DNA of 41,292 nt from a virus. How positions within the stretch are numbered: the stretch's first letter is position 1; each line of letters starts with the position of its first letter. Location: the UHGV virus genome UHGV-1356875, one strand, 5' to 3'. The notes under the pieces were generated by a model. It had not been told where the DNA came from, did no database searches, and saw only the letters and a program-made list of their open reading frames with translations. The translations under genes and the position numbers were made by a program. Shown one piece after another: positions 1 to 18,800 of this stretch.

Positions 1-107
1 ATTTTTTTTATTAATTTCAGAACTTCGTCTATAGTATTTATGTGCATTACATAACCATCTTTTTTATTTTCTTCTACACAAATTTTGTAACTAGGTATTT
101 CCTGCAT
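1..107 (-). CDS. Partial early gene downstream of cro; its 3' end lies beyond the window edge. N-term MQEIPSYKICVEENKKDGYVMHINTIDEVLKLIKK...
   Basis: ATG at 105-107 on the - strand, about 8 nt after an AAGGAGG SD (~115-121). The frame stays open to position 1. Confidence 0.4.
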   Translation of the reverse strand, partial: MQEIPSYKICVEENKKDGYVMHINTIDEVLKLIKK

Positions 108-167
108 TTTAATTCCTCCTTATTAAGTTGTAATTCGTTCAATTTTTATAACCTCTTTTATTACGTT

Positions 168-395
168 TTAAACGTTATTGTTAGTTAAAAAAATAATGTC
201 ATTGTAAGTGACGTTAAATTCTTCTTCTATCTTTTGTAATTGTGGAATATTAGGGAATGTTTTAGCTTTTTCCCAATTGTGCCACACATCAGCAGAAACA
301 CCTACTTTCTTACCTGCCTGTGCTTGAGTTAAATCATATTTAGCACGCAACATTTTTAGAGTATAAGGTTCTTTTCTTACGTATGTTTCAACCAT
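168..395 (-). CDS. cro: Cro-like HTH_XRE transcriptional regulator
   Basis: HTH motif LTQAQAGKKVGVSADVWHNWEKAK. Divergent from cI. Its own promoter is TTGACA-17-TATACT with SD GGAGGTGA. The true start may be an internal Met. Confidence 0.7.
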   Translation of the reverse strand: MVETYVRKEPYTLKMLRAKYDLTQAQAGKKVGVSADVWHNWEKAKTFPNIPQLQKIEEEFNVTYNDIIFLTNNNV

Positions 396-425
396 TTTGT
401 CACCTCCTGTTGTAGAACTGGCTTT

Positions 426-454
426 AGTATATTACGGTTAAAACGTAATGTCAA
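426..454 (-). promoter_or_regulatory. Pcro. -35 TTGACA (449-454 rc), a 17-nt spacer equal to the operator palindrome TTACGgttaaaaCGTAA (432-448), and -10 TATACT (426-431 rc).
   Basis: Consensus hexamers read directly on the - strand. An SD and the cro ATG follow immediately. An operator dyad fills the spacer. Confidence 0.65.
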
Positions 455-482
455 CACTTAAACCGTACTTTTTATTTTTCAC

Positions 483-511
483 TTGTAATATTTACGGAAT
501 AATCGTATAAT
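483..511 (+). promoter_or_regulatory. PcI. TTGTAA (483-488), 17-nt spacer, TATAAT (506-511), with a second operator dyad TTACGgaataatCGTA (492-507) in the spacer.
   Basis: Hexamers and spacing read directly. cI starts 36 nt downstream. The half-site TTACG is shared with the Pcro operator. Confidence 0.6.
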
Positions 512-546
512 GAATTTAAGTTATTAGATGAAGGGATTGAAAATAA

Positions 547-1173
547 ATGCTAGGAAATAAACAAGTAATGGCTAAAAATATTTCTCGTCTTATGAAAGAA
601 AACAATATCAATAGAAAGAAACTTTCAAATGATTTAAAAGTAAAGTATACAACTTTGTCAGATTGGATAAATGCAAAAAATTATCCACGTATTGACAAAA
701 TAGAATTACTTGCTGATTACTTTAATGTAACTAAAGCTGATTTGGTAGAAGATAAAGAACAACAAGTATTAGAAACACTACCAGTCAAAAAAATTCCAGT
801 CGTTTCAAAAATATCTGCGGGCTTACCTATCTATAGTGAAGAAAATTTAATTGATTACATATACTTTGCTACCAACAAACTTAATTCAGATAAAGAAGAA
901 TTTGGTTTAAAAGTGTCTGGCGATAGTATGGATAAGATTTTCCAAGACGGCGATATAGTTGTGGTAGAAAAAGATTCTATAGTAGAGAATGGTCAGTTAG
1001 GCGTTGTTATGATTAATGGTTATAACGCGACTGTTAAACGTATTAGATACAATGGTGACCAAGTTATATTAATTCCAGAATCAAACAATACAAACCACTA
1101 TCCACAGGTATATGGCAAAGATGACGAAGTAAAAATAATTGGTAGAGTTGTAGCAAGTCAAAAGTTATTTTAA
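547..1173 (+). CDS. CI-like repressor: N-terminal HTH_XRE plus C-terminal S24 (LexA-like) autopeptidase
   Basis: N-terminal HTH. Candidate Ala-Gly cleavage site (ISAGLP), Ser motif GDSM and the catalytic Lys region (TVKRI), all typical of S24 repressors. Confidence 0.8.
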   Translation: MLGNKQVMAKNISRLMKENNINRKKLSNDLKVKYTTLSDWINAKNYPRIDKIELLADYFNVTKADLVEDKEQQVLETLPVKKIPVVSKISAGLPIYSEENLIDYIYFATNKLNSDKEEFGLKVSGDSMDKIFQDGDIVVVEKDSIVENGQLGVVMINGYNATVKRIRYNGDQVILIPESNNTNHYPQVYGKDDEVKIIGRVVASQKLF

Positions 1174-1217
1174 TGAAAAGTCAATTTAATAAACTACATG
1201 CAAAAAGGGGACTATGA

Positions 1218-1385
1218 ATGAAGATTTTAAACTATCATATTAGCTATGATCATATTGAGGATTTATACACTGTTACAGCCGAAACTGATAACGGAAAAAC
1301 TTTTTGCTACACATTTTCAGATATGTATACTTTAAAAGAGGTTAGAGAAACGTTAGAGAGAATTGCACGTGAGATAGATAAATAA
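1218..1385 (+). CDS. Small hypothetical protein, 55 aa (MKILNYHISYDHIEDLYTVTAETDNGKTFCYTFSDMYTLKEVRETLERIAREIDK)
   Basis: SD AAAAGGGGA lies 6 nt upstream of the ATG. The stop is 3 nt before the CapA-like ATG, so the two look co-transcribed or translationally coupled. Below the ORF-track cutoff. Confidence 0.4.
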   Translation: MKILNYHISYDHIEDLYTVTAETDNGKTFCYTFSDMYTLKEVRETLERIAREIDK

Positions 1386-1388
1386 ACC

Positions 1389-2546
1389 ATGAAGAAGGTA
1401 TGTAAATTGAAAAAAATAATAGCTATAATTTTTTTTAGCCTATTAGCAGTTATGACTATAATATTTGCTGAAATTGACACCCACTTTAATCATGAAAAAG
1501 TTTCTTTTGTTGCAGTTGGAGATAATTTAATTCATCCAGTTGTTTATAACGATGCAAAAACTCATCACAATGACTATGATTTTTCATCAATGTATAAAAA
1601 CGTTAAACCTTATATAAAAAGATTTGATATTGCTTACATCAACCAAGAATCACCAATGGGAGGGGATGATATACCTTATTCAGGTTTTAAAAGGTTTAAT
1701 ACTCCTAGCGATTTGTCGAAATATTTGGTTGAATCAGGATTTAATTTAATTAACGGATCAAATAATCATGCTCTCGATAAAGGTACACATGGCGTTAATC
1801 ATAGAGTTAATCTATGGGAAAAGTATAAAGAAAAAGGAGTTATGTTCACTGGTGTATACAAGTCTAAAAAAGATAATGAGAAACTTCAAATTATAAATAA
1901 AAATGGAATAAAGATAGCAATACTTAATTATACATTTGGTACTAATGGACTTAAACCAGAAAATAAATATCAAATTAATTATTTGAATGAAAATAAAATA
2001 AAGCGAGACGTCAAATACGCTAAAAAATATAGTGATGCTGTCATCGTTTCAACTCATTGGGGACAAGAAAGTCATCATTATCCAAATAAAAAACAAGAAA
2101 GATATGCTAAAATATTCGCAAATTCGAATGTCGATGCAGTAATAGGTATGCATCCTCATGTAATCCAACCGGTAAAATGGGTAAAAGGTAAAAATAATCA
2201 CAAAACACTGGTAATTTACTCATTAGGTAATTTTTTAAATGGTCAAAACACTGGTAATGAAAGTAATAATCTTTGTGGTAGCATAAACTTCGATATAACA
2301 AAAAAAGGACAGAAAATTGTGATTAAAAATGTTCATTGGAAATCCTTAGTAAATTACTATAAAGAAAGAATACCAGGCAATAAAGATTCTAGATATGATT
2401 TTACTGTTTACCCACTAGACAAATACAACGACAAAATAGCAAATGAACATGGTATGCAAAGTGGTGAAAACAAGGATATGACTAAAGAACATATGGAAAG
2501 AATTACTAATGAAATTATTGATAAAGAATTTTTAAAATCTAACTAA
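1389..2546 (+). CDS. CapA / PGA_cap-family (poly-gamma-glutamate synthesis) metallophosphatase-fold membrane protein; cargo gene
   Basis: N-terminal TM helix. Blocks VAVGDNLIH, DIAYINQESP, NGSNNHALDKG, STHWGQE, IGMHPHVIQP and YSLGNF match CapA/YwtB-type calcineurin-like proteins. Confidence 0.6.
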   Translation: MKKVCKLKKIIAIIFFSLLAVMTIIFAEIDTHFNHEKVSFVAVGDNLIHPVVYNDAKTHHNDYDFSSMYKNVKPYIKRFDIAYINQESPMGGDDIPYSGFKRFNTPSDLSKYLVESGFNLINGSNNHALDKGTHGVNHRVNLWEKYKEKGVMFTGVYKSKKDNEKLQIINKNGIKIAILNYTFGTNGLKPENKYQINYLNENKIKRDVKYAKKYSDAVIVSTHWGQESHHYPNKKQERYAKIFANSNVDAVIGMHPHVIQPVKWVKGKNNHKTLVIYSLGNFLNGQNTGNESNNLCGSINFDITKKGQKIVIKNVHWKSLVNYYKERIPGNKDSRYDFTVYPLDKYNDKIANEHGMQSGENKDMTKEHMERITNEIIDKEFLKSN

Positions 2547-2565
2547 ATTTGTGGATAGTTTAAGA

Positions 2566-2733
2566 AGTAAAAAAGATAACCCCAGGCACATAGGAATGCT
2601 CAGTGCATATGCACCTACCCCTTTTCGGGACCCAGCGTTAATCCTTCTTGAGTTATCTTAATTATATTATAAGTTACATTAATTATTATTTGAAGAGTAA
2701 ATTATCGGGTAGCTCGCCTACCCTATACTTTTG
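2566..2733 (+). repeat. Copy A of a ~165-bp conserved intergenic element. Conserved 5' block, internal promoter-like TTGAGT..TATAAG segment, then 3' hairpin GGGTAGCtcgcCTACCC plus a U-run.
   Basis: About 75-80% identical to 4400-4566. Both copies start at the stop codon of the upstream cassette ORF and end just before the SD of the next gene. Confidence 0.7.
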
Positions 2734-2916
2734 ATATATAAGGAGTGCAAAATAATAAAAAAGTTTTTAGCTTTAATTTTTAGCGGTGCTTTAATTTTAG
2801 GCGCATGTGACACTAAAGATGTGGAAGATAGTACAAAGAAAAAGAAAGATCCTAAAACTGAAGTGGATGATAAAGGTAGAGTTAAGGGTGAAAAAATTGA
2901 AAAAGCGCTAAAATAA
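2731..2916 (+). CDS. Small lipoprotein, mature ~40 aa and Lys/Asp-rich. The likely real start is ATA at 2752 or 2755 (signal MIKKFLALIFSGALILGAC).
   Basis: Lipobox ILGAC. SD AAGGAG (2740-2745) lies 6-9 nt before ATA ATA. The TTG at 2731 used by the ORF track has no SD and sits inside the terminator U-run. Confidence 0.55.
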   Translation: MIYKECKIIKKFLALIFSGALILGACDTKDVEDSTKKKKDPKTEVDDKGRVKGEKIEKALK

Positions 2917-2982
2917 TATTTCACAGATTAATTATTTTACCATTCTAGTGGCTCTTTAACATAAACAAAGGAGGATGTAAGT

Positions 2983-3387
2983 ATGTTCGAAAAACTATTA
3001 ACTTCAATAGGTATAGAATCATTAAAAATAAACACTGTGTTAAAAACACAACAAGTTCATAGTAAAGGTATTTTAGAAGGAAGTGTCATAATAGAAAGCG
3101 CCGCATCTGAACAAACTATTAACCAGATTGAGCTTACATTAATTGAAAGATATGATAATCCCGATGAGCGAAGTCAATTTCCTATTTTAGATAATGAATT
3201 ACAAACATTCACTTTACACGTAGACCGTAGTATATGTGAAAATACCAAAGAAATTGAACATTTCCAATTTAATATTCATGAACTAGAATTTAAAACTAAT
3301 CCCAATAAATTAATTTTAAAAACACATGCTTACCTTTCTCATTCTGTTGATGCTTACGATGAAGATGAAATAAGGTTGATTGATTAA
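2983..3387 (+). CDS. SpoOM-like (sporulation-control Spo0M family, arrestin-like) short protein
   Basis: N-terminus MFEKLLTSIGIESLKINTVL...EGSVIIE parallels the Spo0M N-terminus (MSFFKKLASVGIGAAKVDT...). SD AAAGGAGGA lies upstream. Confidence 0.45.
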   Translation: MFEKLLTSIGIESLKINTVLKTQQVHSKGILEGSVIIESAASEQTINQIELTLIERYDNPDERSQFPILDNELQTFTLHVDRSICENTKEIEHFQFNIHELEFKTNPNKLILKTHAYLSHSVDAYDEDEIRLID

Positions 3388-3428
3388 TTGTGTTCTACTT
3401 TTTCAACATAAATAAAGGAGGTTGAGGT

Positions 3429-4412
3429 ATGGAGAGAGAAAATTTGAAAGAGCGTTTGTTACTTAAATGTCAAGAAGCATTTATTATGGGTTTGGAATTG
3501 TATAATAAACCTACAATTAAATATAGAATTGAAGGTTTCTCATTCTTTATATGTAATGCTTGGGAGTTAATGTTAAAAGCTAAATTATTGAAAGACGATA
3601 TTTCTATTTATTATTCAGATAACCCAAACAGGACTTTGAATTTATCTGATGTGATTAAAATTATCTATACTGATAAAAATCAACCATTAAGAATAAACTT
3701 AGAAAAGATTATAGACTTGAGAAATATTAGCACTCATTTAGTTACAGAGGATTATGAAACTGTTTATGCTCCTTTTTTTCAAGCTAATATTTTAAATTTT
3801 TCGGAACAACTACAAAAATTTCATGACATAGATATAACTAGAAAAATACCTCAAAATTTTTTAAGTTTGTCTGTAAATATGGATATATTAAACAATGATG
3901 AAATACGTGGGAAATATTCACCAACCATTGCCGAAAAGTTAATAACTCAAAAAAATGATTTAGAAGTTGCGCAAGAAACAAATAGTTCTAATTCATTAGT
4001 TATTCCTTTACAAAACACAATAATTATTACAAAAAATCCTAAAAACGCTGATTTTTCAGTAAATGTTTCAAGTGGTTCAGAAAATAACGCTAAAATTTTA
4101 AAAGAGTTAAAAGATCCTAACGATAAATACAGATTAAGTTTTAACAATGTAATTAAAGGTGTTAACAAACAGTTAAAAGCCAAAAACTTAAAATTCAATT
4201 ATTACGATAAAGCTAACGATAAAAATGAATTTAATCAGTATACTTTAAGTTTAATAATAAAATTCTACAATTTAAAATTTGACGATAAATATGCATATCA
4301 TTTTGCAAATCTAACTAGGTATTCTCAACAAATTGTAGATTTTATAGTTAAAGAAATAAAAAATGATCCAAATATAATTAATAACATAAAAAAAGCAAAT
4401 AAAAAAAGATAA
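3429..4412 (+). CDS. 327-aa protein with a HEPN-like R-x4-H motif (LRNISTHL). Possible AbiD/AbiF (Abi_2)-like abortive-infection protein. C-terminal half is N/K-rich.
   Basis: N-terminal block ELYNKP...YRIEGFSFFICNAWELMLKAKLL, then RNxxxH as in HEPN/Abi_2 families. Strong SD AAAGGAGG. Confidence 0.4.
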   Translation: MERENLKERLLLKCQEAFIMGLELYNKPTIKYRIEGFSFFICNAWELMLKAKLLKDDISIYYSDNPNRTLNLSDVIKIIYTDKNQPLRINLEKIIDLRNISTHLVTEDYETVYAPFFQANILNFSEQLQKFHDIDITRKIPQNFLSLSVNMDILNNDEIRGKYSPTIAEKLITQKNDLEVAQETNSSNSLVIPLQNTIIITKNPKNADFSVNVSSGSENNAKILKELKDPNDKYRLSFNNVIKGVNKQLKAKNLKFNYYDKANDKNEFNQYTLSLIIKFYNLKFDDKYAYHFANLTRYSQQIVDFIVKEIKNDPNIINNIKKANKKR

Positions 4413-4566
4413 CCCCAGGGTCATAGGAATTCTCAGCTTTCGCCTACCCCCATTCGGGGACCCAGAGCTAATCCTTCTCGAGTTATCTTAAATACATTAT
4501 AAGTTACATCGAGTATTATTTCAAGAATAATTTTACGGGTAGCATGCCTACCCTTATTATTTTTTA
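4400..4566 (+). repeat. Copy B of the ~165-bp conserved element. Hairpin GGGTAGCatgcCTACCC plus U8, immediately upstream of the int SD.
   Basis: Aligned by eye to 2566-2733 with conserved blocks GATAACCCCAGG, CATAGGAAT.CTCAG, CCTACCCC..TTCGGGACCCAG, TAATCCTTCT.GAGTTATCTTA, ATTATAAGTTACAT and CGGGTAGC..GCCTACCC. Confidence 0.7.
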
Positions 4567-4590
4567 CTTTTTTAAGGAGGAACACGGAAA

Positions 4591-5640
4591 ATGGCAACAT
4601 TTACAGTAACAAAACGCAAAAATAAGACAAGTTCATCATGGCAATATGATGTTAAACACCCTAGTTTGAAGTCTGGTAAAAAACGTAAATCTGGTTTTAA
4701 AACAAAAGCTGAGGCTACTAATGCAGCACAACAATTAATTAGAGATTTAGAAGATGGCAACAACATTGAAGATAATAAAAAATTCATCGACTACTACGAT
4801 GACTGGATAAAAATTAAGAACAAGAAACAGTTGTCTAGCAAACAATTCTACTGGTATGAAAGATCGATTAAATTATTCAGTGAGTATTTCGGAGAAAATA
4901 TGTTAGTTAAAAATATCACACGTATTGAGTATCAAAAGTTTTTAAATCAATACGCACAAGGTCACACTGATGAAACAGTAAGAAAAGTTCACGGTTGTCT
5001 TGCTAGATGTATTAGAGACGCGTTATACGATGGCTATTTGAAGAAAGACCCTACTTATAATGTAAATATCAAAGGGACTGAAAAAGCTAAAGATGAGAAA
5101 TTTAAGTTTATTACGATAAAAGACTATTTAAACTTGCTAGATTATTTCAAGAAAAGAGATGAAGAAAGTTATGTTTTGCTATATCTATTAGGCATTACTG
5201 GCGCAAGATATAGCGATGTCATCAATATGACTTACAAAGATCTAAACAAAGCGAATGGCATAATTCATTTGCCTGGAACGAAAACAAAGAATTCAAAACG
5301 TGATGTAGAAGTTAATTCAAAAGATATCATACACATAAATTCAAAATTAGCTAAAATGCCGCGTAGAATTGATGGCAAGTTATTCTCTGTTAGTCATACA
5401 TCAGTAGGTAAAGCATTTAGAAAAGCAAAAGAAGTGATAGGATTAAACGATAATAATATAACTCCCTATTCACTCAGACATACGCACACATCTTACTTAC
5501 TATCTAAAGGCATACCAATCGAGTATATAAGTAAACGTTTAGGTCACGCTACTATATCACAAACGTTAGACACGTATTCACATTTATTAGAAGAACATAA
5601 AAAAGAGCAAGGCCAACGTGTTAGAGAAATATTCTCTTGA
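4591..5640 (+). CDS. int: Tyrosine recombinase / phage integrase
   Basis: C-terminal catalytic region YSLRHTHTSYLL...GHATISQTLDTYSHL (the R-H-R-Y family signature). SD AAGGAGG. Confidence 0.85.
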   Translation: MATFTVTKRKNKTSSSWQYDVKHPSLKSGKKRKSGFKTKAEATNAAQQLIRDLEDGNNIEDNKKFIDYYDDWIKIKNKKQLSSKQFYWYERSIKLFSEYFGENMLVKNITRIEYQKFLNQYAQGHTDETVRKVHGCLARCIRDALYDGYLKKDPTYNVNIKGTEKAKDEKFKFITIKDYLNLLDYFKKRDEESYVLLYLLGITGARYSDVINMTYKDLNKANGIIHLPGTKTKNSKRDVEVNSKDIIHINSKLAKMPRRIDGKLFSVSHTSVGKAFRKAKEVIGLNDNNITPYSLRHTHTSYLLSKGIPIEYISKRLGHATISQTLDTYSHLLEEHKKEQGQRVREIFS

Positions 5641-5825
5641 CACTTATTTGACACTTACTCTATCGAAAGCCCGTCATATCAACGGTATAGTACGGAAACG
5701 GAGGGATAAATTTAATTTTCTAAACAACTGTAAAAAGGCTTAACTACAGTATTTTTAGAGATTTATTTTCTGACTAGACCTAAATAAGTATAACTATTTT
5801 GACACGTATTTGACACGTGCACACA
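5640..5825. repeat. attP arm-type direct repeats: TTGACACTTATTTGACACTTA (5640-5663) and TTTGACACGTATTTGACACGTG (5797-5820)
   Basis: Four TGACAC(T/G)T copies directly 3' of int. Typical of Int arm-binding sites. Confidence 0.45.
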
Positions 5826-5832
5826 AAAAATT

Positions 5833-5857
5833 ACCACGCTCATAAAGAACGTGGTTA
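5833..5857 (-). terminator. Hairpin ACCACGCTCATAAAGAACGTGGT, with the A-run on the + side giving a U-run on the - strand. Duplicated at 6077-6101.
   Basis: Inverted repeat read directly. Two near-identical copies lie 244 bp apart between the lysin end and int. Confidence 0.45.
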
Positions 5858-6076
5858 GTAAATAAATACATGAAAAACTGAGATGAGAGAAAAGTTAAAT
5901 TGTATATATATAAATTAGCACATTAAAGAATATAAAGTAAATGGTTAACTAAAAATAATATCTTTATATTAGATTTCACATAAAAAAGGATAGCCATTAA
6001 GACTACCCTTCTGTGAAATGACTAGCAAATTAATTATAACATAGTTGTGACAGAAATTGTTGCGTTCGCAAAAATA

Positions 6077-6101
6077 ACCACGCTCATAAAGAGCGTGGTA
6101 G
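6077..6101 (-). terminator. Second copy of the ACCACGCTC-ataaag-AGCGTGGT hairpin (perfect 8-bp stem). Likely late-operon terminator.
   Basis: Perfect dyad flanked by an A-run (+) and therefore a T-run (-). Confidence 0.45.
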
Positions 6102-6305
6102 CAAAAAAATTATAAAGGAGTATAAAAAATTAAATTGTATGTAATTTAATTATAGCACAGACCGTGTAACCAATGTAGTGTTAAACCATGTTTTTTAATA
6201 TCAATCTAACATCTTCATATTATAGACATAATTAATTGTAATTTATAAGAGGGTAGCCATAGCAACTACCCTTGTATAATGACGTGGTAATTGTATTATA
6301 ACAGA

Positions 6306-7769
6306 TTAATTGATTGTACCCCACAATTTCCCTAAACTGTCATTTGTTTTATTCCATGTTCTCACAGCTAACCAAACGTCATTACCATTATAAGCTGTAT
6401 AACTCACCCAAACGTGACCGTCTTGTTTACACACAGTGTCATATTTTATTGTTTGACCTGGCTGTAATACACCGCTCACAGGACAACTTCTAAACGGCCC
6501 AACATAATGAGTTTTAATAGGAGTGTTTGGCGTAAAGCGAGCTATTTCTGATTTGTAATAAGTTCCATACTTATTGATTTTCCAACCGTTTATATCTCGT
6601 CTATTAGCTGGAGTGGAAGCACTGCCAGGTTTGTTTTTAACTGTAGTAACTTTAGGTGTACTGCCTTTCATATATGCCCTAATTTGCTTAATAAAGTAAT
6701 CTTTTAACTTAAGTTGTGTTGCCTTAGTCCATGCTTGTTTTGTTGGATCAATACCAGTATGCAATTTAGCTGAACGATGAGGACAAGCTGTATAACTAAA
6801 TTCGTTGTGTAAACGAACAGTATTTCTGTTAGCTGGTAACCCCCACTTTTTAAGTTTATGCGCTGCGAATTTAAGAGCTGTTTGTTCATTTTTAAGGAAA
6901 TCTTTATCGCTTACGTACAATGATTGATTAACTTCAATTCCATAAGTTTCAAAATTACCTGAACCCGGTTGAACGCCATCAGAAACATGCCAAGCAATTC
7001 TATCTTCTGATATAGCTTCCCAAATACCGTTTCTATCAGCATATGCGTGAGCTATACCTCTTGCTAATCTACTGTAATCAGCGTTTACTAGATTGCTATA
7101 GTATTGCTTTGAATTCATTGTACCAGCATCGTTATGAATAACTACAGCTTTAGGTTTACGACCTCTTTTAGTCATAGTCCAACCTTTTATATGATTAGTG
7201 TTAACTTTGATGCTACTATTTTCCTTAACTGACTGTTTAGGAGCTGATTTTGCATTATTTTTAGGTGCTTCTATTTCTTTCGCTACAGGCGGAACAATAA
7301 AGTGTGTTAAACCATAATAGTTATCCCATCGTAAGCTAGGCTTTTTATTAGCCCAGCCATTCCAATTTTGTTCAAGTATTTGGAAGGAGTTCGTATTACC
7401 ACCTTCATACACTATACCTATATGACCATAACGCGAATAAATTCCAGATGTATATACAGCTATCCAACCTTTTTTGGGTACCGTTGACGGTTTATTTTCT
7501 ACAATCTTCCACTCTTTAGGGAATTTATTCATTAAAGAGCTTTTAGCATCGCCCCACATTTCTGTTTGATTATCAGTTAACCACATTACATAATCTATCG
7601 CCAAATCCATACACTGTGCGTGATAAGCACGATCTTTATCAATGCATCCTGGTTCCATAGCACCAAACGAAGCGTCATAACTCGTCCAACGTTTAACTCT
7701 GTATGGACTATCTACTACACCGTTTTTATAATCTCTTAAACGTTTATTGATTTGAGATTGTGTTTTCAT
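6306..7769 (-). CDS. Endolysin: CHAP peptidase, Amidase_2 and C-terminal SH3b
   Basis: N-terminal CHAP region resembles the LysK/phi11 lysin (cf. DSPYRVKK..YHAQC..KKGWIAVFTSG..HIGIV..QNWNGYANKKP..DNYYGLTHFI). SH3b-like C-terminus. Strong SD GGAGGAGGAG before the internal ATG at 7769. The ORF-track start at 7823 overlaps the holin. Confidence 0.85.
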   Translation of the reverse strand: MKTQSQINKRLRDYKNGVVDSPYRVKRWTSYDASFGAMEPGCIDKDRAYHAQCMDLAIDYVMWLTDNQTEMWGDAKSSLMNKFPKEWKIVENKPSTVPKKGWIAVYTSGIYSRYGHIGIVYEGGNTNSFQILEQNWNGWANKKPSLRWDNYYGLTHFIVPPVAKEIEAPKNNAKSAPKQSVKENSSIKVNTNHIKGWTMTKRGRKPKAVVIHNDAGTMNSKQYYSNLVNADYSRLARGIAHAYADRNGIWEAISEDRIAWHVSDGVQPGSGNFETYGIEVNQSLYVSDKDFLKNEQTALKFAAHKLKKWGLPANRNTVRLHNEFSYTACPHRSAKLHTGIDPTKQAWTKATQLKLKDYFIKQIRAYMKGSTPKVTTVKNKPGSASTPANRRDINGWKINKYGTYYKSEIARFTPNTPIKTHYVGPFRSCPVSGVLQPGQTIKYDTVCKQDGHVWVSYTAYNGNDVWLAVRTWNKTNDSLGKLWGTIN

Positions 7770-8154
7770 CTGGGGCTCCTCCTCCACCATTGTTAAACTC
7801 GAATTTCTCTTCATCAGAATCATCAGTAAACGGTTCGTTAGTGTCGAAAACTTCAGGTTTCACTGCACCTGACTCACTTTTAAAGTGTACAGGATGTGTT
7901 TCTTGATTGCGCGGTTTATTTAGTTCTAGGTCAATACCAGCATCAGCAAATCCTTTAGTGTTAGGGTTTGTAACAACACCTAATGCTACAAGTATTGTAA
8001 TAATACTCCCCAGAATACTACTGATTGTTTCAAGTTGACTTGATATATCTATACCAAATGCTTCGGTTACTTGTTTAGCAAATAATAATATAGCACCAAC
8101 TAAAGCTGTGAGTGTTGTTCCGTTTTTTAAACGTGTAATCCAATTAATTTTCAA
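7744..8154 (-). CDS. Holin (phi11-family, 2-TM)
   Basis: MKINWITRLKNG..LVGAILLFAKQVTEAFGID..ILVALGVVTNP parallels the phi11 holin. Sits directly upstream of the lysin. Confidence 0.8.
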   Translation of the reverse strand: MKINWITRLKNGTTLTALVGAILLFAKQVTEAFGIDISSQLETISSILGSIITILVALGVVTNPNTKGFADAGIDLELNKPRNQETHPVHFKSESGAVKPEVFDTNEPFTDDSDEEKFEFNNGGGGAPDENTISNQ

Positions 8155-9214: not shown

Positions 9215-9605
9215 ACGTTAAAGTAGTTAAAAAATAAATAAGAGGTGACATCCAATTTAAAGAATCACTAATACCAGCTAACGTAATTACAAAGAAAAAC
9301 ACAGAACAAATAATCCCTCCTAAAATAAGAGTAATACTATAAACTTTGTTAATATTTCTATAAGGTAAAGCCATAGCTGCAATTGCTAAACATATTCCTC
9401 CTATAAAGAATGGAATCCCCCAAATACTTAAGGGAATTATTTCATTAATACTACTATACAATGGGCTTTTATCGACTTGAATTTCAGAAGCAAATATAAA
9501 AAAAGAACCTCGAGCCATAGCTATTGTTCCAATAAATAATAAAGAAATAACATTAATATATTCCATTTCAGTCATACGGTGTGTTTTCTTCATTTTTCTA
9601 CCCAC
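9168..9605 (-). CDS. Integral membrane protein, about 4 TM
   Basis: Four hydrophobic helices. Function unknown. Confidence 0.4.
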   Translation of the reverse strand: MGRKMKKTHRMTEMEYINVISLLFIGTIAMARGSFFIFASEIQVDKSPLYSSINEIIPLSIWGIPFFIGGICLAIAAMALPYRNINKVYSITLILGGIICSVFFFVITLAGISDSLNWMSPLIYFLTTLTCGGYAYFGVLHYAKQ

Positions 9606-10225
9606 TTTCTATCATTAATTGCAGCGCAGATAGCATTAGCATAGTAATACATGTCTTTTGTCCAATTATGTGTATTTTCTCTATTCTTTTGACTAAAATC
9701 GTTTCGACTAAAAAATTCTTTTCTTTGCTGAGTTGATATTTCAATCTGTACACCCATTCCACAGGCGTTTTTGTTAGTTATATTATTAATTTCTTTACCA
9801 GCAATTCTTTCAGGAGCGGCTTCCACATTAAAACCTGAAACTTTTAAATTGTGAGTAATAAGTGATATAAGTCTTTCATCCAATCCACCAATATAACTAT
9901 TTGCTTGATTGCTTGAATAACCATGTATGGCTATCGTTACATTCATAAATTGATTCCAATATAGTAAATTGGGGTTATCATAATTTGTTGAAGTGACGTG
10001 TAGAGTCCTATTGTTTTTCGGTTTTAAACCTTTAAAAGTGAAGTAGTTTGCATTCGATAATTCTGCAACCAATAATGCTAATTCAGAAGTACCGCACTCT
10101 ATACCACCTCCGTGTATAGCAGTTATAAGTGATTTACTATTTCTATCTTGCGTCTCAATCATCCAATCTTTTTCATTCCTCACAAGTTCAGTCATAGATT
10201 TATAAGTATCCATCACATTATTCAC
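9590..10225 (-). CDS. Poly-gamma-glutamate hydrolase PghP-like (DUF867 / Gamma_PGA_hydro) zinc peptidase
   Basis: Motif ITAIHGGGIECGTSELA (H-GG-IE-GT) plus a second His in IAIHGY, as in phage PghP. Common tail-region gene in Staphylococcus phages. Confidence 0.55.
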   Translation of the reverse strand: MNNVMDTYKSMTELVRNEKDWMIETQDRNSKSLITAIHGGGIECGTSELALLVAELSNANYFTFKGLKPKNNRTLHVTSTNYDNPNLLYWNQFMNVTIAIHGYSSNQANSYIGGLDERLISLITHNLKVSGFNVEAAPERIAGKEINNITNKNACGMGVQIEISTQQRKEFFSRNDFSQKNRENTHNWTKDMYYYANAICAAINDRKWVEK

Positions 10226-11432
10226 CTCCTTTATCTATCATTCTAATTTCTCCGTAAATATAAGCTTCACGACTTACTGACCACTGATCGCTCTGAGAAA
10301 TATAAACTTTAACATCTCCATTAGGTTCAATTGTTAATTGAGCACCGCAAGCTTTAACAGGCACCGTTCTTAGGAACGCAGTTTGCGTACTTGTAATTAA
10401 TTCACTCGGTAACTTCGCTATAGCAGTTCCACTTTTGAAATTGTCAGCGTTAATTCTTAAAATCACTTCCTTGTAATCTTGATGTTGAATAGTTTTATAA
10501 GCGCAATTAAAACCATTTTGTCCTTCAGCTTTATAATGCCTATTTTTTATAGCTCCATTAATTAAATCATATTCGATCCAATCTGAAGATTCAGGTAACT
10601 TTTCTTGTATTTCAGTAATGATTTTACGATGTTCATCAATTGTGACGTATCCCTCTTGACTTAATATATTTTCAATATTCCTAACTTCGATTCTTAAATC
10701 TTTCAAATATTGACTTCCTTTTGTGTCAATTTCGTTGTCATATTCTTCATAAAGATTTTGAATTGTATTTTTAGCCGCGTTAAGAAATTCCTCGACGTCT
10801 TTTACACTTTTACTATGTTGTTGATTAAGTTTGTCCAACCCTTTTTTTGTTTCAATCTGAATCTTTGTAATTCCTTCATCACTTGCATCTTTCACTTTAA
10901 CAACGTAATCTTCTAAATTATCTAATTGTTCTTGTATTTCAGTGGCTCGTGCATTAATTTGTCTTTTTAATTCATCAAACATACGGATATATTTAATTTT
11001 AGTTGCACCATTAATTTTATTTATTATTGCGTTACCCACTTTGAATTCAAATTCGTTTAAAACTGCAGTTGATGATTTATCGCTATCTACCTGATTTAGA
11101 TGATTAATCGAAATATATATTTGACCTATAACAGTTGTATTCGTTGAAGCTTGTAAGAATTCAATAGGTATGGTTACTTCAATAACACCATTCAAAGGGT
11201 CAATAAAACGTACATTTTCTACTACTTGATTAGAACCGTTAGAGGATTCAAGATATATGTACGTTTCAGTGTTTTCTTCACTAATTAATAAAGGTTCGTT
11301 GTTTTTAGTCACATAAAACCTTAAAACAGCAGTTTTATCATCTAAATTATAAAAACCGATACCTTCATCAGATATCGGTTTTAAGTAAGGCTCGTTTTTA
11401 ACTTCAATTTTACCAATCTTTTGTAATTCCAT
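10218..11432 (-). CDS. Tail fibre / minor structural protein (coiled-coil middle, beta-rich ends)
   Basis: Position in the tail module and composition only. Confidence 0.35.
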   Translation of the reverse strand: MELQKIGKIEVKNEPYLKPISDEGIGFYNLDDKTAVLRFYVTKNNEPLLISEENTETYIYLESSNGSNQVVENVRFIDPLNGVIEVTIPIEFLQASTNTTVIGQIYISINHLNQVDSDKSSTAVLNEFEFKVGNAIINKINGATKIKYIRMFDELKRQINARATEIQEQLDNLEDYVVKVKDASDEGITKIQIETKKGLDKLNQQHSKSVKDVEEFLNAAKNTIQNLYEEYDNEIDTKGSQYLKDLRIEVRNIENILSQEGYVTIDEHRKIITEIQEKLPESSDWIEYDLINGAIKNRHYKAEGQNGFNCAYKTIQHQDYKEVILRINADNFKSGTAIAKLPSELITSTQTAFLRTVPVKACGAQLTIEPNGDVKVYISQSDQWSVSREAYIYGEIRMIDKGGE

Positions 11433-15879: not shown

Positions 15880-18800
15880 TTATAAACCTCCCTGGCTATA
15901 AGCAGCGAGTCTTAACCTTGAACCTTGTGCCTGACTTACATCGCGTTCTGAAAAACCTTTCGGTTGTTTTTCAATATTTTCATTACTTCGTGCTATTTCC
16001 ATTAACACGTTTATTTGTTTCTGTTGATTTTCTATCATTTGTAGTAGCAATTCTGCGTTATCAACTGTATTACTAGTAACACTAGGTGTACGTAATTGGT
16101 TAGGTCGTTTATTTCTGTTATTTCCACTAATTTTACTCGCAGCAAGATGTAACAATTTCATCGCATCTGATTGTCTGCTTGGATCTGTAGGGATTACAAT
16201 TTCTGGATAACCCCCTTCAGCAAGTTGATACATTCCCGATGTATTAATAACTCCGCCTGTAGCATAAGCATAATCTCCAGCACGTTTAAATGCACTTCTC
16301 CAACTTCCCATAATAGGAACCCACTTACCTACAATGTAACGCATAGCAGATATAGCTTCGTCAGTTGGGTTTAAGATGTTTCCGTGCCCTGGTTTAGCAT
16401 ATGCTCTAAAAGATGATCCAATCATTTGGAACATACCTTTAGAAGGGTCTCCCATTCTAGCGTTAATGTCCCAGTTGTTAACTGCATCGGCTTGGAAATT
16501 AGATTCACGCTTGGCAACTCTCATCATTTGTTCGGTAATATAAGACGATTTATAACGTCCACCTAAAATAGATTGTGCTCTTTGAATTGCTCTACGTGCG
16601 TTTGCAGAACCACTACCACCAACTTTTCCGCCACCGTGACCTTTGAGCCACTTAAGTGGGTTTACAGTATTCTGGTTAGTAATATCATTATGTCTACCTT
16701 TTTCGACTTGGAAATGTAAGTGAGGACCAGTAGTCCAGTTACCACTATTACCTGTTTTAGCTATAGGTTCTCCTGCCTGTACTTTACCGTGTTTCAATAT
16801 TTTAGATAAGTGCATAAAAAATAATGTGAATTGACCTGTTAAAAGTCTTGCAACAAGCCCTCCGCCAAAGTTATGCAATTCACCTAACTGTCCGCTATTC
16901 GTAGCGTTGATTGTCGTACCAAAAGGTGCGCCAAAGTCAATACCGTAATGATGACCTCCACCAAAACTATAACCAGGAGCGCCACCATTAGGATAATATC
17001 CCGTAGTAATTGGGAACTTAGTAAAGGAAGAGCCATCGCCGCCACCGGCATCATTAAGCCATTCGTCAAATAATGATTTGACACCACTCTTTAATTTCTT
17101 GTAGGCTCCTTGCATTAAATCAAAAGGTAAAGGTGCATCCTTGAGAAAATTAAAGTTAAATCCAACTTTGTCAAAAATTTTGTTAACTAATTTACCAGGG
17201 TGTCCTATATAATCAAATACATCTCCTATACCTGATATAACTGCACTTCCAACTTTTTTAGCTTTAACCGCAACCTCAGAACCAACTTTCTTCACTTGAT
17301 CTACTGCATTTCCTCCCAAGTCCTTGCCTTTTCCTACTGTGCCTTTAATAGATTTTTTACCTTTTCCAAACATATATTCAGCTTTTTCTTTGATAGCTGA
17401 ACCGATACTAAAACGAGGCATTTGGGATAGCATCGCATGAGTTTGTGTGCCATTATAAACTTTAGAACCTTTAGGTAAGAATGTGGTTGTATCTCTATTA
17501 GGGGTAATAGTCGTTTTACCGTTAGGATACTCAATCATTTCATGTCTAAATCCACTAGGGCCATTACCTCTACCTTTGTCTCCGACTGTCGCAAAAGTGT
17601 CTCGGTTAATTTTCCCATGACTCACATATTTTTTAGATGCGTTTGTCCCTGTACTTAATTTAATAGACGGTAATTTATCCATACCTAATTTATCAGCAAC
17701 CCAGTTAACGCCACTGATCAATTTATTCAATCCTTTTTTAACACCTTTGACCATTCCGCCAAAAAGATTACCAATTTTACCGGTAACTGTTTTGATACCG
17801 TCTCTCATTTTATTCATGGTGCCCATAACTTTCGATTTCATGCTATTTACTATAGATACAGTAGTACTTTTAATTCCATTCCATTTCTTGCTCATGAAGC
17901 CACCAACAGCATTCATGGTGTTATGAGTACCTTTTTTAAGTGATCCCCAAGCACCTTTGACGCCTGACCATAGGGCTTTCGCTTTATTAACAGTACCTTT
18001 TTTAATACTGTTCCATTTAGAACTCATGAAACTACCGACTGCTTTAAATATGCCAATTGTACCTTTTTTGAGTGCATTCCATGTATTTCTAACTCCAGAC
18101 CATAATGCTTTCGCTCGATTAATGACAGTATTTTTCATAGCAGTCCAGATTCTAACTGTGGCATTCTTTATAGCATTAAATATTGCAGAAACACCTTTTT
18201 TTAATGCATTAAACACAGAAAGAACACCTTTGCGTAAAGTTCGAACAATTCCTAATACAGCATTTTTTAGTGCAGTCCACACTTTAATAGAGAAATTTTT
18301 AATAGCATTAAATATCGTAACTACTATACGTTTAATAAGGTTGATATTGAATTTCACTTGCGCAACATACGCTTTAATAATTGCTATAACACCGTTCTTC
18401 AAGGCGGTCCAGATTTTAATAGCACTATTCTTCATAGCGTTCCAGATAGTCGACAAAATAGTTTTCAATGTTTTGATAGGATGTAATATAGCAAGTTTAA
18501 TTCCGTTCCATGTAGCTACAGCAACGGTTTTAATTCCGTTCCATACTGCAATTGTTGAAGCTTTTATAGCATTCCATATAGCTACTATATAAGTCTTAAT
18601 AAACCCAAATATAGTTACTGCCGAATTTTTAATAGCATTCCAAGCAGTAATTACACTATTTCTAAACGAACTATTTGTTTTCCATAAATGAATAAGTCCA
18701 GCTACTAATAATCCGATAGCTGTAATAACTATACCGACTGGACCAGTCATAAACCTTATAGCTAATCCTAAGCCTTTAGTTGCTAAAGCTGCACCTTTAG

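What the first reader, a model, noticed from the sequence alone, without database searches (positions are those of the whole stretch)
2566..4566. Two copies of a novel ~165-bp conserved element, each closing an accessory gene cassette just upstream of int
Positions 2566-2733 and 4400-4566 align at about 75-80% identity over their full length. Each copy begins exactly at the stop codon of a cassette ORF (the CapA-like gene, and the HEPN-like gene). Each has a conserved 5' block, a promoter-like middle (T(T/C)GAGTTATCTTA...ATTATAAGTTACAT) and a GC hairpin (GGGTAGC-N4-GCCTACCC) followed by a U-run. Each ends 10-25 nt before the SD of the next gene, which is the lipoprotein operon for copy A and int for copy B.

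Candidate explanations:
- a cassette-boundary module (terminator plus promoter) that supplies homology for moron exchange;
- a structured leader, attenuator or sRNA;
- an attC-like recombination site, since cassettes sit in the same orientation beside a tyrosine recombinase.

The GGGTAG/CTACCC hairpin recurs at 5985-6005 and 6250-6270 near attP.
Basis: seen in the sequence. Interest (0 to 1): 0.72.

Follow-up and report, generated by a model that had tools for sequence, protein, structure and literature searches.

The report
Hidden small-RNA partner of a defence nuclease
The two 165-bp repeats are not cassette boundaries: each is a small gene for a ~95-nt structured RNA read from the opposite strand, an undescribed RNA found next to a widespread candidate anti-phage nuclease gene (PDC-S19) in every locus checked, where it probably keeps the nuclease in check.

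Summary
The repeat is real: 2566-2733 and 4400-4566 are 79.8% identical.

Each copy has three parts:
- a gene for a ~95-nt structured RNA on the minus strand (RNA-A 2562-2660, RNA-B 4395-4490);
- a plus-strand terminator hairpin, seen only in staphylococcal versions.

RNA-B converges on gene 3429-4412 and overlaps its stop codon. That gene encodes a HEPN (DUF3644) plus EC042_2821 protein, the PADLOC candidate defence PDC-S19.

In three protein-seeded samples (genomes, metagenomes, viral contigs), all 236 loci with enough downstream DNA carry this RNA on the opposite strand. They span several phyla. Covariation is strong: 97% of cells paired and 22 of 30 pairs with double changes. G.U pairs identify the minus strand (334 G.U cells against 6). 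The RNA is more conserved than the protein (76% against 48% mean identity). Rfam has no match.

RNA-A is an orphan. It keeps a ~45-nt relic of a lost partner gene.

The most likely role is an RNA antitoxin or regulator of the HEPN nuclease, as in AbiF/RCd22 and AbiV. This is inferred, not shown. The attC and leader readings are rejected.

The parts
4395..4490 (-). RNA-B: gene for a ~95-nt structured small RNA, the cognate partner of the PDC-S19 gene. Its 5' end lies near 4489. The closing helix P1 plus U-run at the 3' end overlaps the stop codon at 4410-4412.
   Evidence: Covariance model R1 scores 90.6 bits, E 9e-21.
4496..4524 (-). Promoter of RNA-B: -35 TTGAAA (4524-4519), 17-nt spacer, -10 TATAAT (4501-4496).
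   Evidence: It is the best promoter-like site in 1-6400, matching 11 of 12 positions. The same arrangement is conserved in 71 of 82 homologous loci, against 4.6% of random positions (sequences).
4537..4566 (+). Plus-strand terminator-like hairpin GGGTAGCATGCCTACCC followed by a T-run. It probably ends the PDC-S19 transcript before int. This part is specific to staphylococcal versions.
   Evidence: Terminator scan. CTACCC is conserved upstream of the RNA promoter in staphylococcal loci only. Only 22 of 153 diverse loci have a plus-strand terminator in this position.
3429..4412 (+). Partner gene: a 327-aa protein with a HEPN (DUF3644, Rx4H motif R98-H103) N-terminal domain and an EC042_2821 REase-like C-terminal domain. 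It is the PADLOC candidate defence PDC-S19.
2562..2660 (-). RNA-A: an orphan copy of the same RNA gene. It is the variant that elsewhere accompanies a different DUF3644 clade.
   Evidence: Covariance model R1 scores 113.1 bits, E 9e-27. No DUF3644 gene lies upstream of it.
2666..2694 (-). Promoter of RNA-A: -35 TTCAAA (2694-2689), 17-nt spacer, -10 TATAAT (2671-2666).
   Evidence: Promoter scan, 10 of 12 positions.
2707..2733 (+). Plus-strand terminator-like hairpin GGGTAGCTCGCCTACCC with a weaker T-rich tail.
   Evidence: Terminator scan.
2527..2572 (+). Relic of the last ~15 codons of a lost DUF3644 gene. The CapA-like (PGA_cap) ORF now ends inside it, at 2546.
   Evidence: blastn and alignment to the 3' ends of DUF3644 genes in L020, L003 and L119.

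Best explanation
Each ~165-bp copy is a compact transcription unit for a ~90-95-nt structured small RNA made from the minus strand.

Anatomy. The unit has its own sigma-70-type promoter. The RNA begins at a 10-bp closing helix (P1, AAGAUAACUU/GGGGUUAUCUU). It folds into an irregular stem (P1, P2a, P2b) topped by two hairpins: P3, and P4, which is variable. A conserved single-stranded stretch, GAG(C/A)AUU, joins them. The RNA ends at the U-run after P1. In staphylococcal phages a plus-strand terminator hairpin is attached.

Partnership. The RNA gene converges on the gene for a HEPN (DUF3644) plus EC042_2821 REase-like protein (candidate defence PDC-S19) and overlaps its last codons. The two together form one two-component module carried as a moron in the lysogeny region.

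Most likely mechanism (inferred). The RNA is the antitoxin or negative regulator of the HEPN nuclease. It acts mainly by binding the protein directly, as in type III-like systems. Because the partner transcript must read through the RNA gene, the RNA is also antisense to the 3' end of the nuclease mRNA. Infection or loss of the element would lower the RNA level and free the nuclease.

Copy B (RNA-B) is the working partner of gene 3429-4412. Copy A (RNA-A) is an orphan, left when its own nuclease gene was replaced by the CapA-like gene. It may still neutralise related nucleases.

Shown: the RNA gene, its strand, structure and promoter, the obligate linkage and the orphan status. Inferred: the antitoxin role and protein binding.
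For: Strand and structure:
- On 74 distinct sequences, 97% of cells pair. 22 of 30 pairs show changes on both sides. 0 of 500 shuffles reach the observed values, and slid controls pair at 37-49%.
- The same helices hold 334 G.U cells and 62 non-pairs on the minus strand. On the plus strand they would hold 6 G.U cells and 390 non-pairs.

Own promoter:
- A TTGACA-like box, a 16-18-nt spacer and a TATAAT-like box lie 4-10 nt before RNA position 1 in 71 of 82 loci, against 4.6% of random positions, although the flank is only 53% conserved.
- In the window these sites are among the four best in 6.4 kb.

Linkage:
- The RNA is found next to the gene, on the opposite strand, in 80 of 80 genome loci.
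- It is found in 79 of 79 usable metagenome loci of a clade seeded with a protein ~36% identical to the window protein.
- It is found in 77 of 77 usable viral loci and in Corynebacterium phage Poushou.
- The stop codon ends within 12 nt of the outer end of P1 in 120 of 146 loci.

Constraint: mean pairwise identity is 76.5% for the RNA, 61% for the CDS and 48.5% for the protein. RNA and protein identities co-vary (Spearman 0.55).

TA-like asymmetry:
- No protein gene was found without the RNA.
- 13 of 61 RNAs found by pattern lack the protein gene, yet score as high as linked copies.
- Several orphans keep 22-57-nt relics of the gene's 3' end.

The protein is a HEPN nuclease candidate.

Precedent: HEPN toxins neutralised by dedicated ~100-nt RNAs with their own promoter are known, namely AbiF/RCd22 (PMC12373285) and AbiV1/abiV2 (bioRxiv 10.1101/2024.05.05.592566).
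Against: - No expression, toxicity or binding data exist for this RNA or protein. The antitoxin role rests on architecture, linkage, asymmetry and analogy.
- Ishtar proteins have an N-terminal HEPN domain of the DUF4145 or DUF3644 type. They were reported to act when expressed alone from an inducible promoter, with only a limited viability cost (bioRxiv 10.64898/2026.07.06.735840). A DUF3644 nuclease therefore need not require an RNA.
- Two distant actinobacterial DUF3644+EC042_2821 genes have no detectable RNA.
- The arrangement, convergent and downstream, differs from every described RNA-antitoxin/HEPN pair.
- Orphans could simply be recent debris.
- Single-sequence MFE folds recover only P1 and P3 of the comparative structure.
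Confidence: 0.55

Rival explanations
1. The RNA is a positive, integral subunit of the nuclease rather than an inhibitor. It would act as a scaffold, activator or infection sensor of a ribonucleoprotein effector, and defence would fail without it.
For: Linkage is obligate, 236 of 236 loci. The RNA is more conserved than the protein and has long invariant single-stranded stretches. In AbiV the RNA component was essential for phage resistance, not only for tolerating the toxin.
Against: Intact orphan RNAs without the protein are common, while the reverse was never seen. That asymmetry is typical of antitoxins. The only strongly variable stretch, P4, is a self-paired hairpin, so it is unlikely to serve as a guide.
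Confidence: 0.2
2. The RNA is a pure cis-antisense regulator, with type I-like logic. Convergent transcription and pairing with the 3' end of the nuclease mRNA trigger degradation or interference. No protein binding is involved.
For: The 3' ends converge and overlap in almost all loci. No plus-strand terminator lies inside the RNA gene in 154 of 158 loci, so the nuclease transcript must carry the complement of the RNA.
Against: Antisense pairing is guaranteed by the shared DNA and needs no sequence conservation. Yet the non-coding part is 76% conserved across phyla, with compensatory changes that keep a minus-strand-specific fold. Known type I toxins are small membrane peptides (own knowledge), not 327-aa enzymes.
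Confidence: 0.12
3. The RNA is an independent trans-acting phage or satellite small RNA that regulates host or lysogeny genes. It merely travels with the PDC-S19 gene.
For: It has its own promoter and terminator. Orphans persist in several phages with intact promoters. It sits in the lysogeny module.
Against: Linkage to one protein family holds at 100% across Bacillota, Actinomycetota, Fusobacteriota, Bacteroidota, Saccharibacteria and Gastranaerophilales hosts. That is hard to reconcile with a host-specific target. 81 of 128 loci have no integrase within 1.5 kb downstream. RNA and protein identities co-vary.
Confidence: 0.06
4. One reading: a cassette-boundary module (terminator plus promoter) whose function is to end one moron, start the next, and supply homology for moron exchange.
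For: Plus-strand terminator-like hairpins lie at 2707-2723 and 4537-4553. Gene replacements have occurred exactly at the edge of the element. Examples are the CapA-like gene in the window and an Abi_2 gene in L057.
Against: The promoter faces the other way. The conserved block is a minus-strand RNA with covariation. The hairpin is limited to staphylococcal versions. The element follows one gene family, not cassettes in general.
Confidence: 0.04
5. An attC-like or other recombination site used by the neighbouring tyrosine integrase, or a structured leader or attenuator of int.
For: The copies are directly oriented and lie upstream of a tyrosine recombinase gene. An int lies within 1.5 kb downstream in 47 of 128 loci.
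Against: The adjacent integrases are extremely diverse (23-100% identity) while the element is nearly constant. 81 of 128 loci have no int nearby. The helices rely on G.U pairs on one strand, which double-stranded DNA or the opposite strand cannot form. The RNA is transcribed away from int.
Confidence: 0.02

Closest known systems
AbiF(Cd)/RCd22 of C. difficile prophage phi027 (abiF RNA motif, Rfam RF03085; PMC12373285)
   Same: A prophage-borne HEPN-family toxin is paired with a dedicated ~100-nt structured RNA. That RNA has its own SigA promoter and a terminator. [quoted passage not shown]
   Different: The RNA family differs: nothing matched RF03085 or any other Rfam family around the element at E up to 10. 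The protein family differs: Abi_2, against DUF3644 plus EC042_2821 here. RCd22 lies upstream on the same strand and is co-transcribed with abiF. The present RNA is downstream, convergent and overlaps the stop codon. Function here is untested.
AbiV1/abiV2 of Lactococcus (bioRxiv 10.1101/2024.05.05.592566)
   Same: A HEPN RNase has an adjacent RNA component that inhibits it. Both parts are needed for the system.
   Different: abiV2 lies upstream of the toxin gene and was first read as a small ORF. The HEPN family is unrelated. No conserved multi-helix RNA family was described for it.
Classical type III toxin-antitoxin systems (ToxIN, CptIN, TenpIN; own knowledge)
   Same: A protein endoribonuclease toxin is inhibited by a cis-encoded RNA. 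They have a defence or abortive-infection role and are carried on mobile elements.
   Different: In those systems the antitoxin is an array of short tandem repeats upstream of the toxin gene and is processed by the toxin. The toxins are not HEPN proteins. Here there is a single, independently transcribed, convergent RNA with a three-way-junction-like fold.
Type I TA pairs with 3'-overlapping antisense RNAs (TxpA/RatA, BsrG/SR4, SprA1/SprA1AS; own knowledge) and lambda OOP RNA
   Same: A convergent small RNA has a 3' end that overlaps the 3' end of the gene it controls. They are frequent in prophages of Bacillota.
   Different: Those toxins are small hydrophobic peptides. Their antisense RNAs are not conserved across phyla and show no deep structural covariation.
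Ishtar (bioRxiv 10.64898/2026.07.06.735840) and HEC-08 (bioRxiv 10.1101/2024.01.29.577857), defence proteins with DUF3644-type HEPN domains
   Same: They have an N-terminal HEPN domain of DUF3644 type and act in defence against plasmids or phages. In HEC-08 the Rx4-6H histidine is required.
   Different: They have other C-terminal domains and come from other hosts. Neither paper mentions an RNA partner. Whether they belong to the RNA-linked branch was not tested.

Membership tests
Any described RNA family (Rfam 15, 4227 models, including abiF RF03085) | Match to the family covariance model at or near its gathering score | tested here: not met
   No hit in the whole window at gathering thresholds. 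For 2400-4700, both strands, at E up to 10, there were only chance hits to unrelated families. The one hit overlapping the element was CLRN1-AS1 at 15.5 bits against a gathering score of 48.
Type III-like toxin-antitoxin (RNA antitoxin / protein RNase toxin) | The toxin is a ribonuclease-type protein | tested here: met
Type III-like toxin-antitoxin (RNA antitoxin / protein RNase toxin) | A dedicated non-coding RNA gene is invariably adjacent to the toxin gene | tested here: met
   236 of 236 usable protein-seeded loci. The RNA has its own promoter and a covarying structure.
Type III-like toxin-antitoxin (RNA antitoxin / protein RNase toxin) | The RNA binds and neutralises the protein, and the toxin is harmful without it | not testable with these tools
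   This needs cloning, toxicity rescue and EMSA or co-purification. The only indirect support is the asymmetry: there are orphan RNAs but no orphan protein genes.
Classical type III TA (ToxIN-like) | The antitoxin is a tandem array of short repeats upstream of the toxin on the same strand | tested here: not met
   There is a single ~95-nt unit, downstream and on the opposite strand. The direct-repeat search shows no tandem array at either element.
Type I toxin-antitoxin | An antisense RNA overlaps the toxin transcript | tested here: met
   Genes are convergent, with the stop codon within 12 nt of the outer end of P1 in 120 of 146 loci and inside the RNA in 21 more. This is shown at the DNA level only.
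Type I toxin-antitoxin | The toxin is a small hydrophobic peptide | tested here: not met
   The partner is a 327-aa soluble two-domain HEPN protein.
Integron attC site | A recombination site that works as folded single-stranded DNA and is associated with an integron integrase and promoterless cassettes | tested here: not met
   The helices need G.U pairs, 334 cells on the minus strand. The element carries its own promoter. The neighbouring int is a phage-type integrase, and no int lies within 1.5 kb in 81 of 128 loci.
Cis-regulatory leader, attenuator or riboswitch of the downstream gene (int or lipoprotein) | The structured RNA is on the same strand as the regulated gene and upstream of it | tested here: not met
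   The functional strand is opposite to int and the lipoprotein gene. The downstream gene varies or is not an int.
PADLOC PDC-S19 candidate defence system (protein component) | Match to the PDC-S19 profile HMMs | tested here: met
   PDLC04952 E 1.8e-134, covering residues 4-326. Defence activity of this family was not found in the searchable literature.

The most novel reading that the evidence does not exclude
The RNA is not a simple antidote. It is the sensing or regulatory core of a new RNA-protein immune effector. The HEPN/REase-like protein would be held in a ribonucleoprotein complex, and phage infection would trigger it by cleaving, displacing or out-titrating the RNA. Phages such as this one would keep intact orphan copies (RNA-A) as portable anti-defence decoys. 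These decoys would disarm the PDC-S19 systems of resident prophages and satellites.
Probability: 0.2. Interest if true: 0.85.

Novelty: new variant of a known kind. Interest (0 to 1): 0.7.

Why it matters
PDC-S19 (DUF3644 plus EC042_2821) is catalogued as a single-gene candidate defence system, and its genes are annotated as 'hypothetical' or 'DUF3644'. This work shows that, in the branch examined, it is a two-component module.

The second component is an unannotated, deeply conserved structured RNA. It was found in every usable locus examined, across several bacterial phyla and in many streptococcal and staphylococcal prophages and satellites.

Consequences:
- It adds a new RNA family to the short list of RNA partners of HEPN nucleases.
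- Cloning the ORF alone may fail or mislead, which experimenters need to know.
- It supplies a ready covariance model for annotation.
- It corrects spurious 'hypothetical protein' calls laid over the RNA.
- The orphan copies give a directly testable idea about phage-borne anti-defence RNAs.

Tried and rejected
- **Rfam.** No family fits. The whole window was searched at gathering thresholds, and the region on both strands at E up to 10.
- **Plus-strand structure.** Across homologues, however, the helices would carry 390 non-pairs on that strand.
- **First consensus register.** RNAalifold paired C24-G25 with UG one step off. I replaced it with a continuous P2b helix with one bulged U, which shows four pair types at two positions.
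- **int-linked element.** Rejected: the integrases are 23-100% identical to one another, and none lies within 1.5 kb in 81 of 128 loci.
- **Trans pairing with the partner's ribosome-binding site.** No signal: mean z is -0.06 against shuffled UTRs in 149 loci. Start-codon calls there were automatic, so this is weak negative evidence.
- **Plus-strand terminator as a general part of the module.** It is found only in staphylococcal versions, and in 22 of 153 loci elsewhere.
- **Other collections.** There is no copy in complete E. coli genomes, and only five plasmid records hold one.
- **Distant homologues.** Distant actinobacterial DUF3644+EC042_2821 genes (L222, L224) and a truncated Legionella gene show no RNA.
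- **Solved structures.** No solved structure of the protein family exists.
- **Literature.** Searches for the RNA sequence, for PDC-S19 and for EC042_2821 found nothing about an RNA partner.
Full report
**1. The observation**

The window is a temperate staphylococcal phage genome. Its closest records are coagulase-negative Staphylococcus phages S-CoN_Ph18-25. The lysogeny region runs on the plus strand in this order:
- cI-like repressor, 547-1173;
- a small ORF;
- a PGA_cap (CapA-like) gene, 1389-2546;
- copy A of the element;
- a lipoprotein-like ORF;
- a Spo0M-like gene, 2983-3387;
- a 327-aa gene, 3429-4412;
- copy B of the element;
- int, 4591-5640.

The attP region and the lysin gene (minus strand, 6306-7823) follow.

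Positions 2566-2733 and 4400-4566 align over their full length at 79.8% identity. A 26-nt core pattern occurs exactly twice in the window, with none expected by chance.

**2. The element is widespread and tied to one gene**

A blastn search of copy A against phage records found it in staphylococcal phages. Its first ~105 nt also appeared, at 77-87% identity, in many Streptococcus prophages and satellite prophages.

In those records it directly follows a 321-aa gene that is only 50% identical in protein to window gene 3429-4412. Both proteins are DUF3644 (HEPN) plus EC042_2821 REase-like. Both match the PADLOC candidate defence PDC-S19, at E 1.8e-134 for the window protein and 2.8e-146 for the streptococcal one. 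A non-coding stretch that is better conserved than the neighbouring protein pointed to a functional RNA or DNA structure.

An exact-pattern scan of IMG/VR returned 58 loci with 39 sequence variants. About three quarters of them follow a DUF3644 gene. Most precede a tyrosine integrase, but those integrases are very diverse, at 23-100% identity.

**3. It is a gene on the other strand**

I laid out the variants as the reverse complement. Almost every locus then shows a -35 box (TTGACA, TTGAAA or TTTACA), a 16-18-nt spacer and a -10 box (TATAAT). The -10 box ends 4-10 nt before the conserved block, which starts AAGAUAAC. The block ends GGGGUUAUCUU followed by a U-run.

A scoring test put this promoter arrangement in 71 of 82 homologous loci, against 4.6% of random positions. 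The surrounding 60 nt are only 53% conserved.

In the window, the promoter scan ranks two minus-strand sites among the four best in 6.4 kb:
- 4524..4496, TTGAAA-17-TATAAT, 11 of 12 positions;
- 2694..2666, TTCAAA-17-TATAAT, 10 of 12 positions.

**4. Structure and strand**

I built a covariance model from 30 variants. It finds RNA-A at 2562-2660 (113 bits) and RNA-B at 4395-4490 (90.6 bits), both on the minus strand.

On a more diverse alignment (A4) I refined the consensus to these elements:
- P1, a 10-bp closing helix;
- P2a, 3 bp;
- a 5-nt bulge;
- P2b, 7 bp with one bulged U;
- hairpin P3;
- hairpin P4, variable in sequence and length;
- a conserved single strand, GAG(C/A)AUU, that joins P4 back to P2b.

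Pair counts support this structure. 97% of cells form standard pairs, and 22 of 30 pairs have changes on both sides. 0 of 500 shuffles reach the observed values, and slid controls pair at 37-49%.

The strand test is decisive. On the minus strand the helices hold 334 G.U cells and 62 non-pairs. The same helices read on the plus strand would hold 6 G.U cells and 390 non-pairs.

In a distant clade P1 changes freely while staying paired. Examples are AAGCUAAC/GUUAGCUU, AAGUCAAC/GUUGACUU and GAGACGAC/GUCGUCUC.

Single-sequence MFE folds recover only P1 and P3. The structure therefore rests on comparative evidence.

**5. Linkage to the nuclease gene**

Three protein-seeded samples were searched with the model.

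| Sample | Protein identity | Loci with the RNA |
|---|---|---|
| One genome per species; Staphylococcus, Streptococcus, lactobacilli, Clostridia, Bifidobacterium, Fusobacterium, Saccharibacteria, a Paludibacteraceae MAG and a Gastranaerophilales MAG | 46-87% to the window protein | 80 of 80 |
| Metagenome loci of a distant clade | seed protein ~36% identical to the window protein | 79 of 80; the exception is cut by the contig end |
| IMG/VR viral contigs | 46-100% | 77 of 77 with enough downstream DNA; three more are cut by the locus end |

In every case the RNA lies on the strand opposite the gene, at the gene's end. Corynebacterium phage Poushou also has it, at 53 bits.

The stop codon ends within 12 nt of the outer end of P1 in 120 of 146 loci. 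It lies 20-38 nt inside the RNA in 21 more. In the window, the TAA at 4410-4412 lies in the 3' strand of P1, and the terminator U-run is the A-rich run that encodes the C-terminal lysines.

No canonical plus-strand terminator lies within the RNA gene in 154 of 158 loci. The nuclease transcript must therefore carry the complement of the RNA.

Mean pairwise identity is 76.5% for the RNA, 61% for the CDS and 48.5% for the protein. RNA and protein identities co-vary, with Spearman 0.55.

An integrase lies within 1.5 kb downstream in only 47 of 128 loci. The RNA therefore belongs with the nuclease gene, not with int.

The family has limits. Two distant actinobacterial plasmid genes with both protein domains show no RNA. 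Complete E. coli genomes have no copy.

**6. Copy A is an orphan**

No DUF3644 gene precedes RNA-A. Homology to DUF3644-linked loci nevertheless extends ~45 nt upstream of the RNA (about 2527-2572). That stretch matches the last ~15 codons of DUF3644 genes of another staphylococcal clade. The PGA_cap ORF now terminates inside this relic.

In the RNA-seeded viral set, 13 of 61 RNAs lack the protein gene. Several keep 22-57-nt relics of its 3' end. Their model scores equal those of linked copies.

Two chromosomal loci, L083 and L118, also carry a second, upstream copy.

In L057 an Abi_2 gene has been joined so that its ORF runs through the A-run into P1.

Gene replacement therefore happens repeatedly at the edge of the RNA gene and spares the RNA.

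**7. The GC hairpin**

GGGTAG-N5-CTACCC plus a T-run is called as a plus-strand terminator at 2707-2723 and 4537-4553. It lies beyond the RNA promoter. It is conserved in staphylococcal loci but not elsewhere.

It most plausibly ends the nuclease transcript before int (copy B) or before the lipoprotein gene (copy A).

**8. Mechanism**

Shown:
- an independently promoted, structured minus-strand RNA;
- its obligate convergent partnership with a HEPN nuclease gene;
- stronger constraint on the RNA than on the protein;
- orphan RNAs but no orphan protein genes.

Inferred: the RNA is the antitoxin or negative regulator of the nuclease. It would act chiefly by direct binding. Conservation of its single-stranded stretches across phyla is not needed for antisense pairing, which the shared DNA already guarantees. 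Antisense overlap with the 3' end of the mRNA would add a second layer of control.

Precedents are AbiF/RCd22 (PMC12373285) and AbiV1/abiV2.

I put about 0.9 on 'minus-strand sRNA gene that is the partner of PDC-S19', and about 0.55 on the full statement that includes the antitoxin role.

Rivals are an activating or sensing RNP subunit (0.2), a pure antisense regulator (0.12), an unrelated trans-acting sRNA (0.06), a boundary module (0.04), and an attC site or leader (0.02).

**9. Comparison with what is known, and novelty**

Rfam 15 has no model for this RNA. The searchable literature mentions DUF3644 in three papers and EC042_2821 in one, none with an RNA partner. PDC-S19 and strings from the RNA sequence returned nothing. 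The protein family has no solved structure.

The module works like the recently described HEPN-toxin/RNA-antitoxin pairs. It differs from them in RNA family, in protein family and in architecture, being convergent and overlapping the stop codon, as in type I pairs.

I therefore rate it a new variant of a known kind. Function still has to be shown by experiment.

Noticed in passing
window 5800-6305 (between the int stop and the lysin stop; attP region): A second, unrelated ~245-nt direct duplication (76% column identity). On the minus strand each unit starts with an extended -10 box (TGTTATAAT). It ends in an intrinsic terminator, ACCACG(C/T)TCTTTATGAGCGTGGT plus a T-run, at 6099-6077 and 5855-5833. 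The units look like two tandem ~200-nt minus-strand transcription units. There is no Rfam match. The closest relatives align over only 68% of this region.
   Followed up: partly
window 2740-2770 (start of the lipoprotein-like ORF after copy A): After the Shine-Dalgarno sequence AAGGAG, the expected start codon reads ATA (KECKIIKKF...). The homologous ORF in relative L019 has M at this position (KECKIMKKF...). The lipoprotein signal peptide (lipobox LGAC) may therefore start at a rare codon, or the gene may be inactivated. L031, a near-identical contig, shares the ATA.
   Followed up: partly
L057 about 9540-10548, in the orientation of the RNA pattern: An orphan copy of the RNA is preceded by an Abi_2 (AbiD/F family, PF07751) gene. 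Its reading frame continues through the A-run and P1 of the RNA (...QQKKITPGT*). A second kind of HEPN abortive-infection gene has thus been spliced onto the RNA gene of a PDC-S19 module.
   Followed up: partly
L083 3329-3425 and L118 3654-3750: Chromosomal loci of Streptococcus pseudopneumoniae and S. tangpeifui also carry a second RNA copy 1.3-1.6 kb upstream of the linked one. Each has a relic of a DUF3644 3' end. The window's two-copy layout therefore recurs independently.
   Followed up: partly
Phage records OR354841-OR354848 and others (column of annotated features): Deposited annotations place 'hypothetical protein' CDSs over the element. In the window the equivalent is the 55-aa minus-strand ORF 4433-4600. 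These are most likely spurious calls over an RNA gene.
   Followed up: no
L222 (Mycolicibacterium plasmid) and L224 (Dietzia plasmid): Distant DUF3644+EC042_2821 genes without a detectable RNA. In L224 only 63 nt separate the gene from the next one. This may mark the boundary of the RNA-linked branch, or a diverged partner that the model cannot see.
   Followed up: partly
window 18125-18579: Four copies of a 59-nt unit spaced exactly 132 nt apart (63-100% identity). This probably reflects a repeated 44-residue protein module in a structural gene on the minus strand (family D1).
   Followed up: no
L046 and L026/L032 (IMG/VR loci): Decayed partner genes sit next to intact RNAs. In L046 only the C-terminal third of the gene remains, after a cI-like gene. 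In L026 and L032 the gene is split into two frames. This fits loss of the nuclease with retention of the RNA.
   Followed up: no
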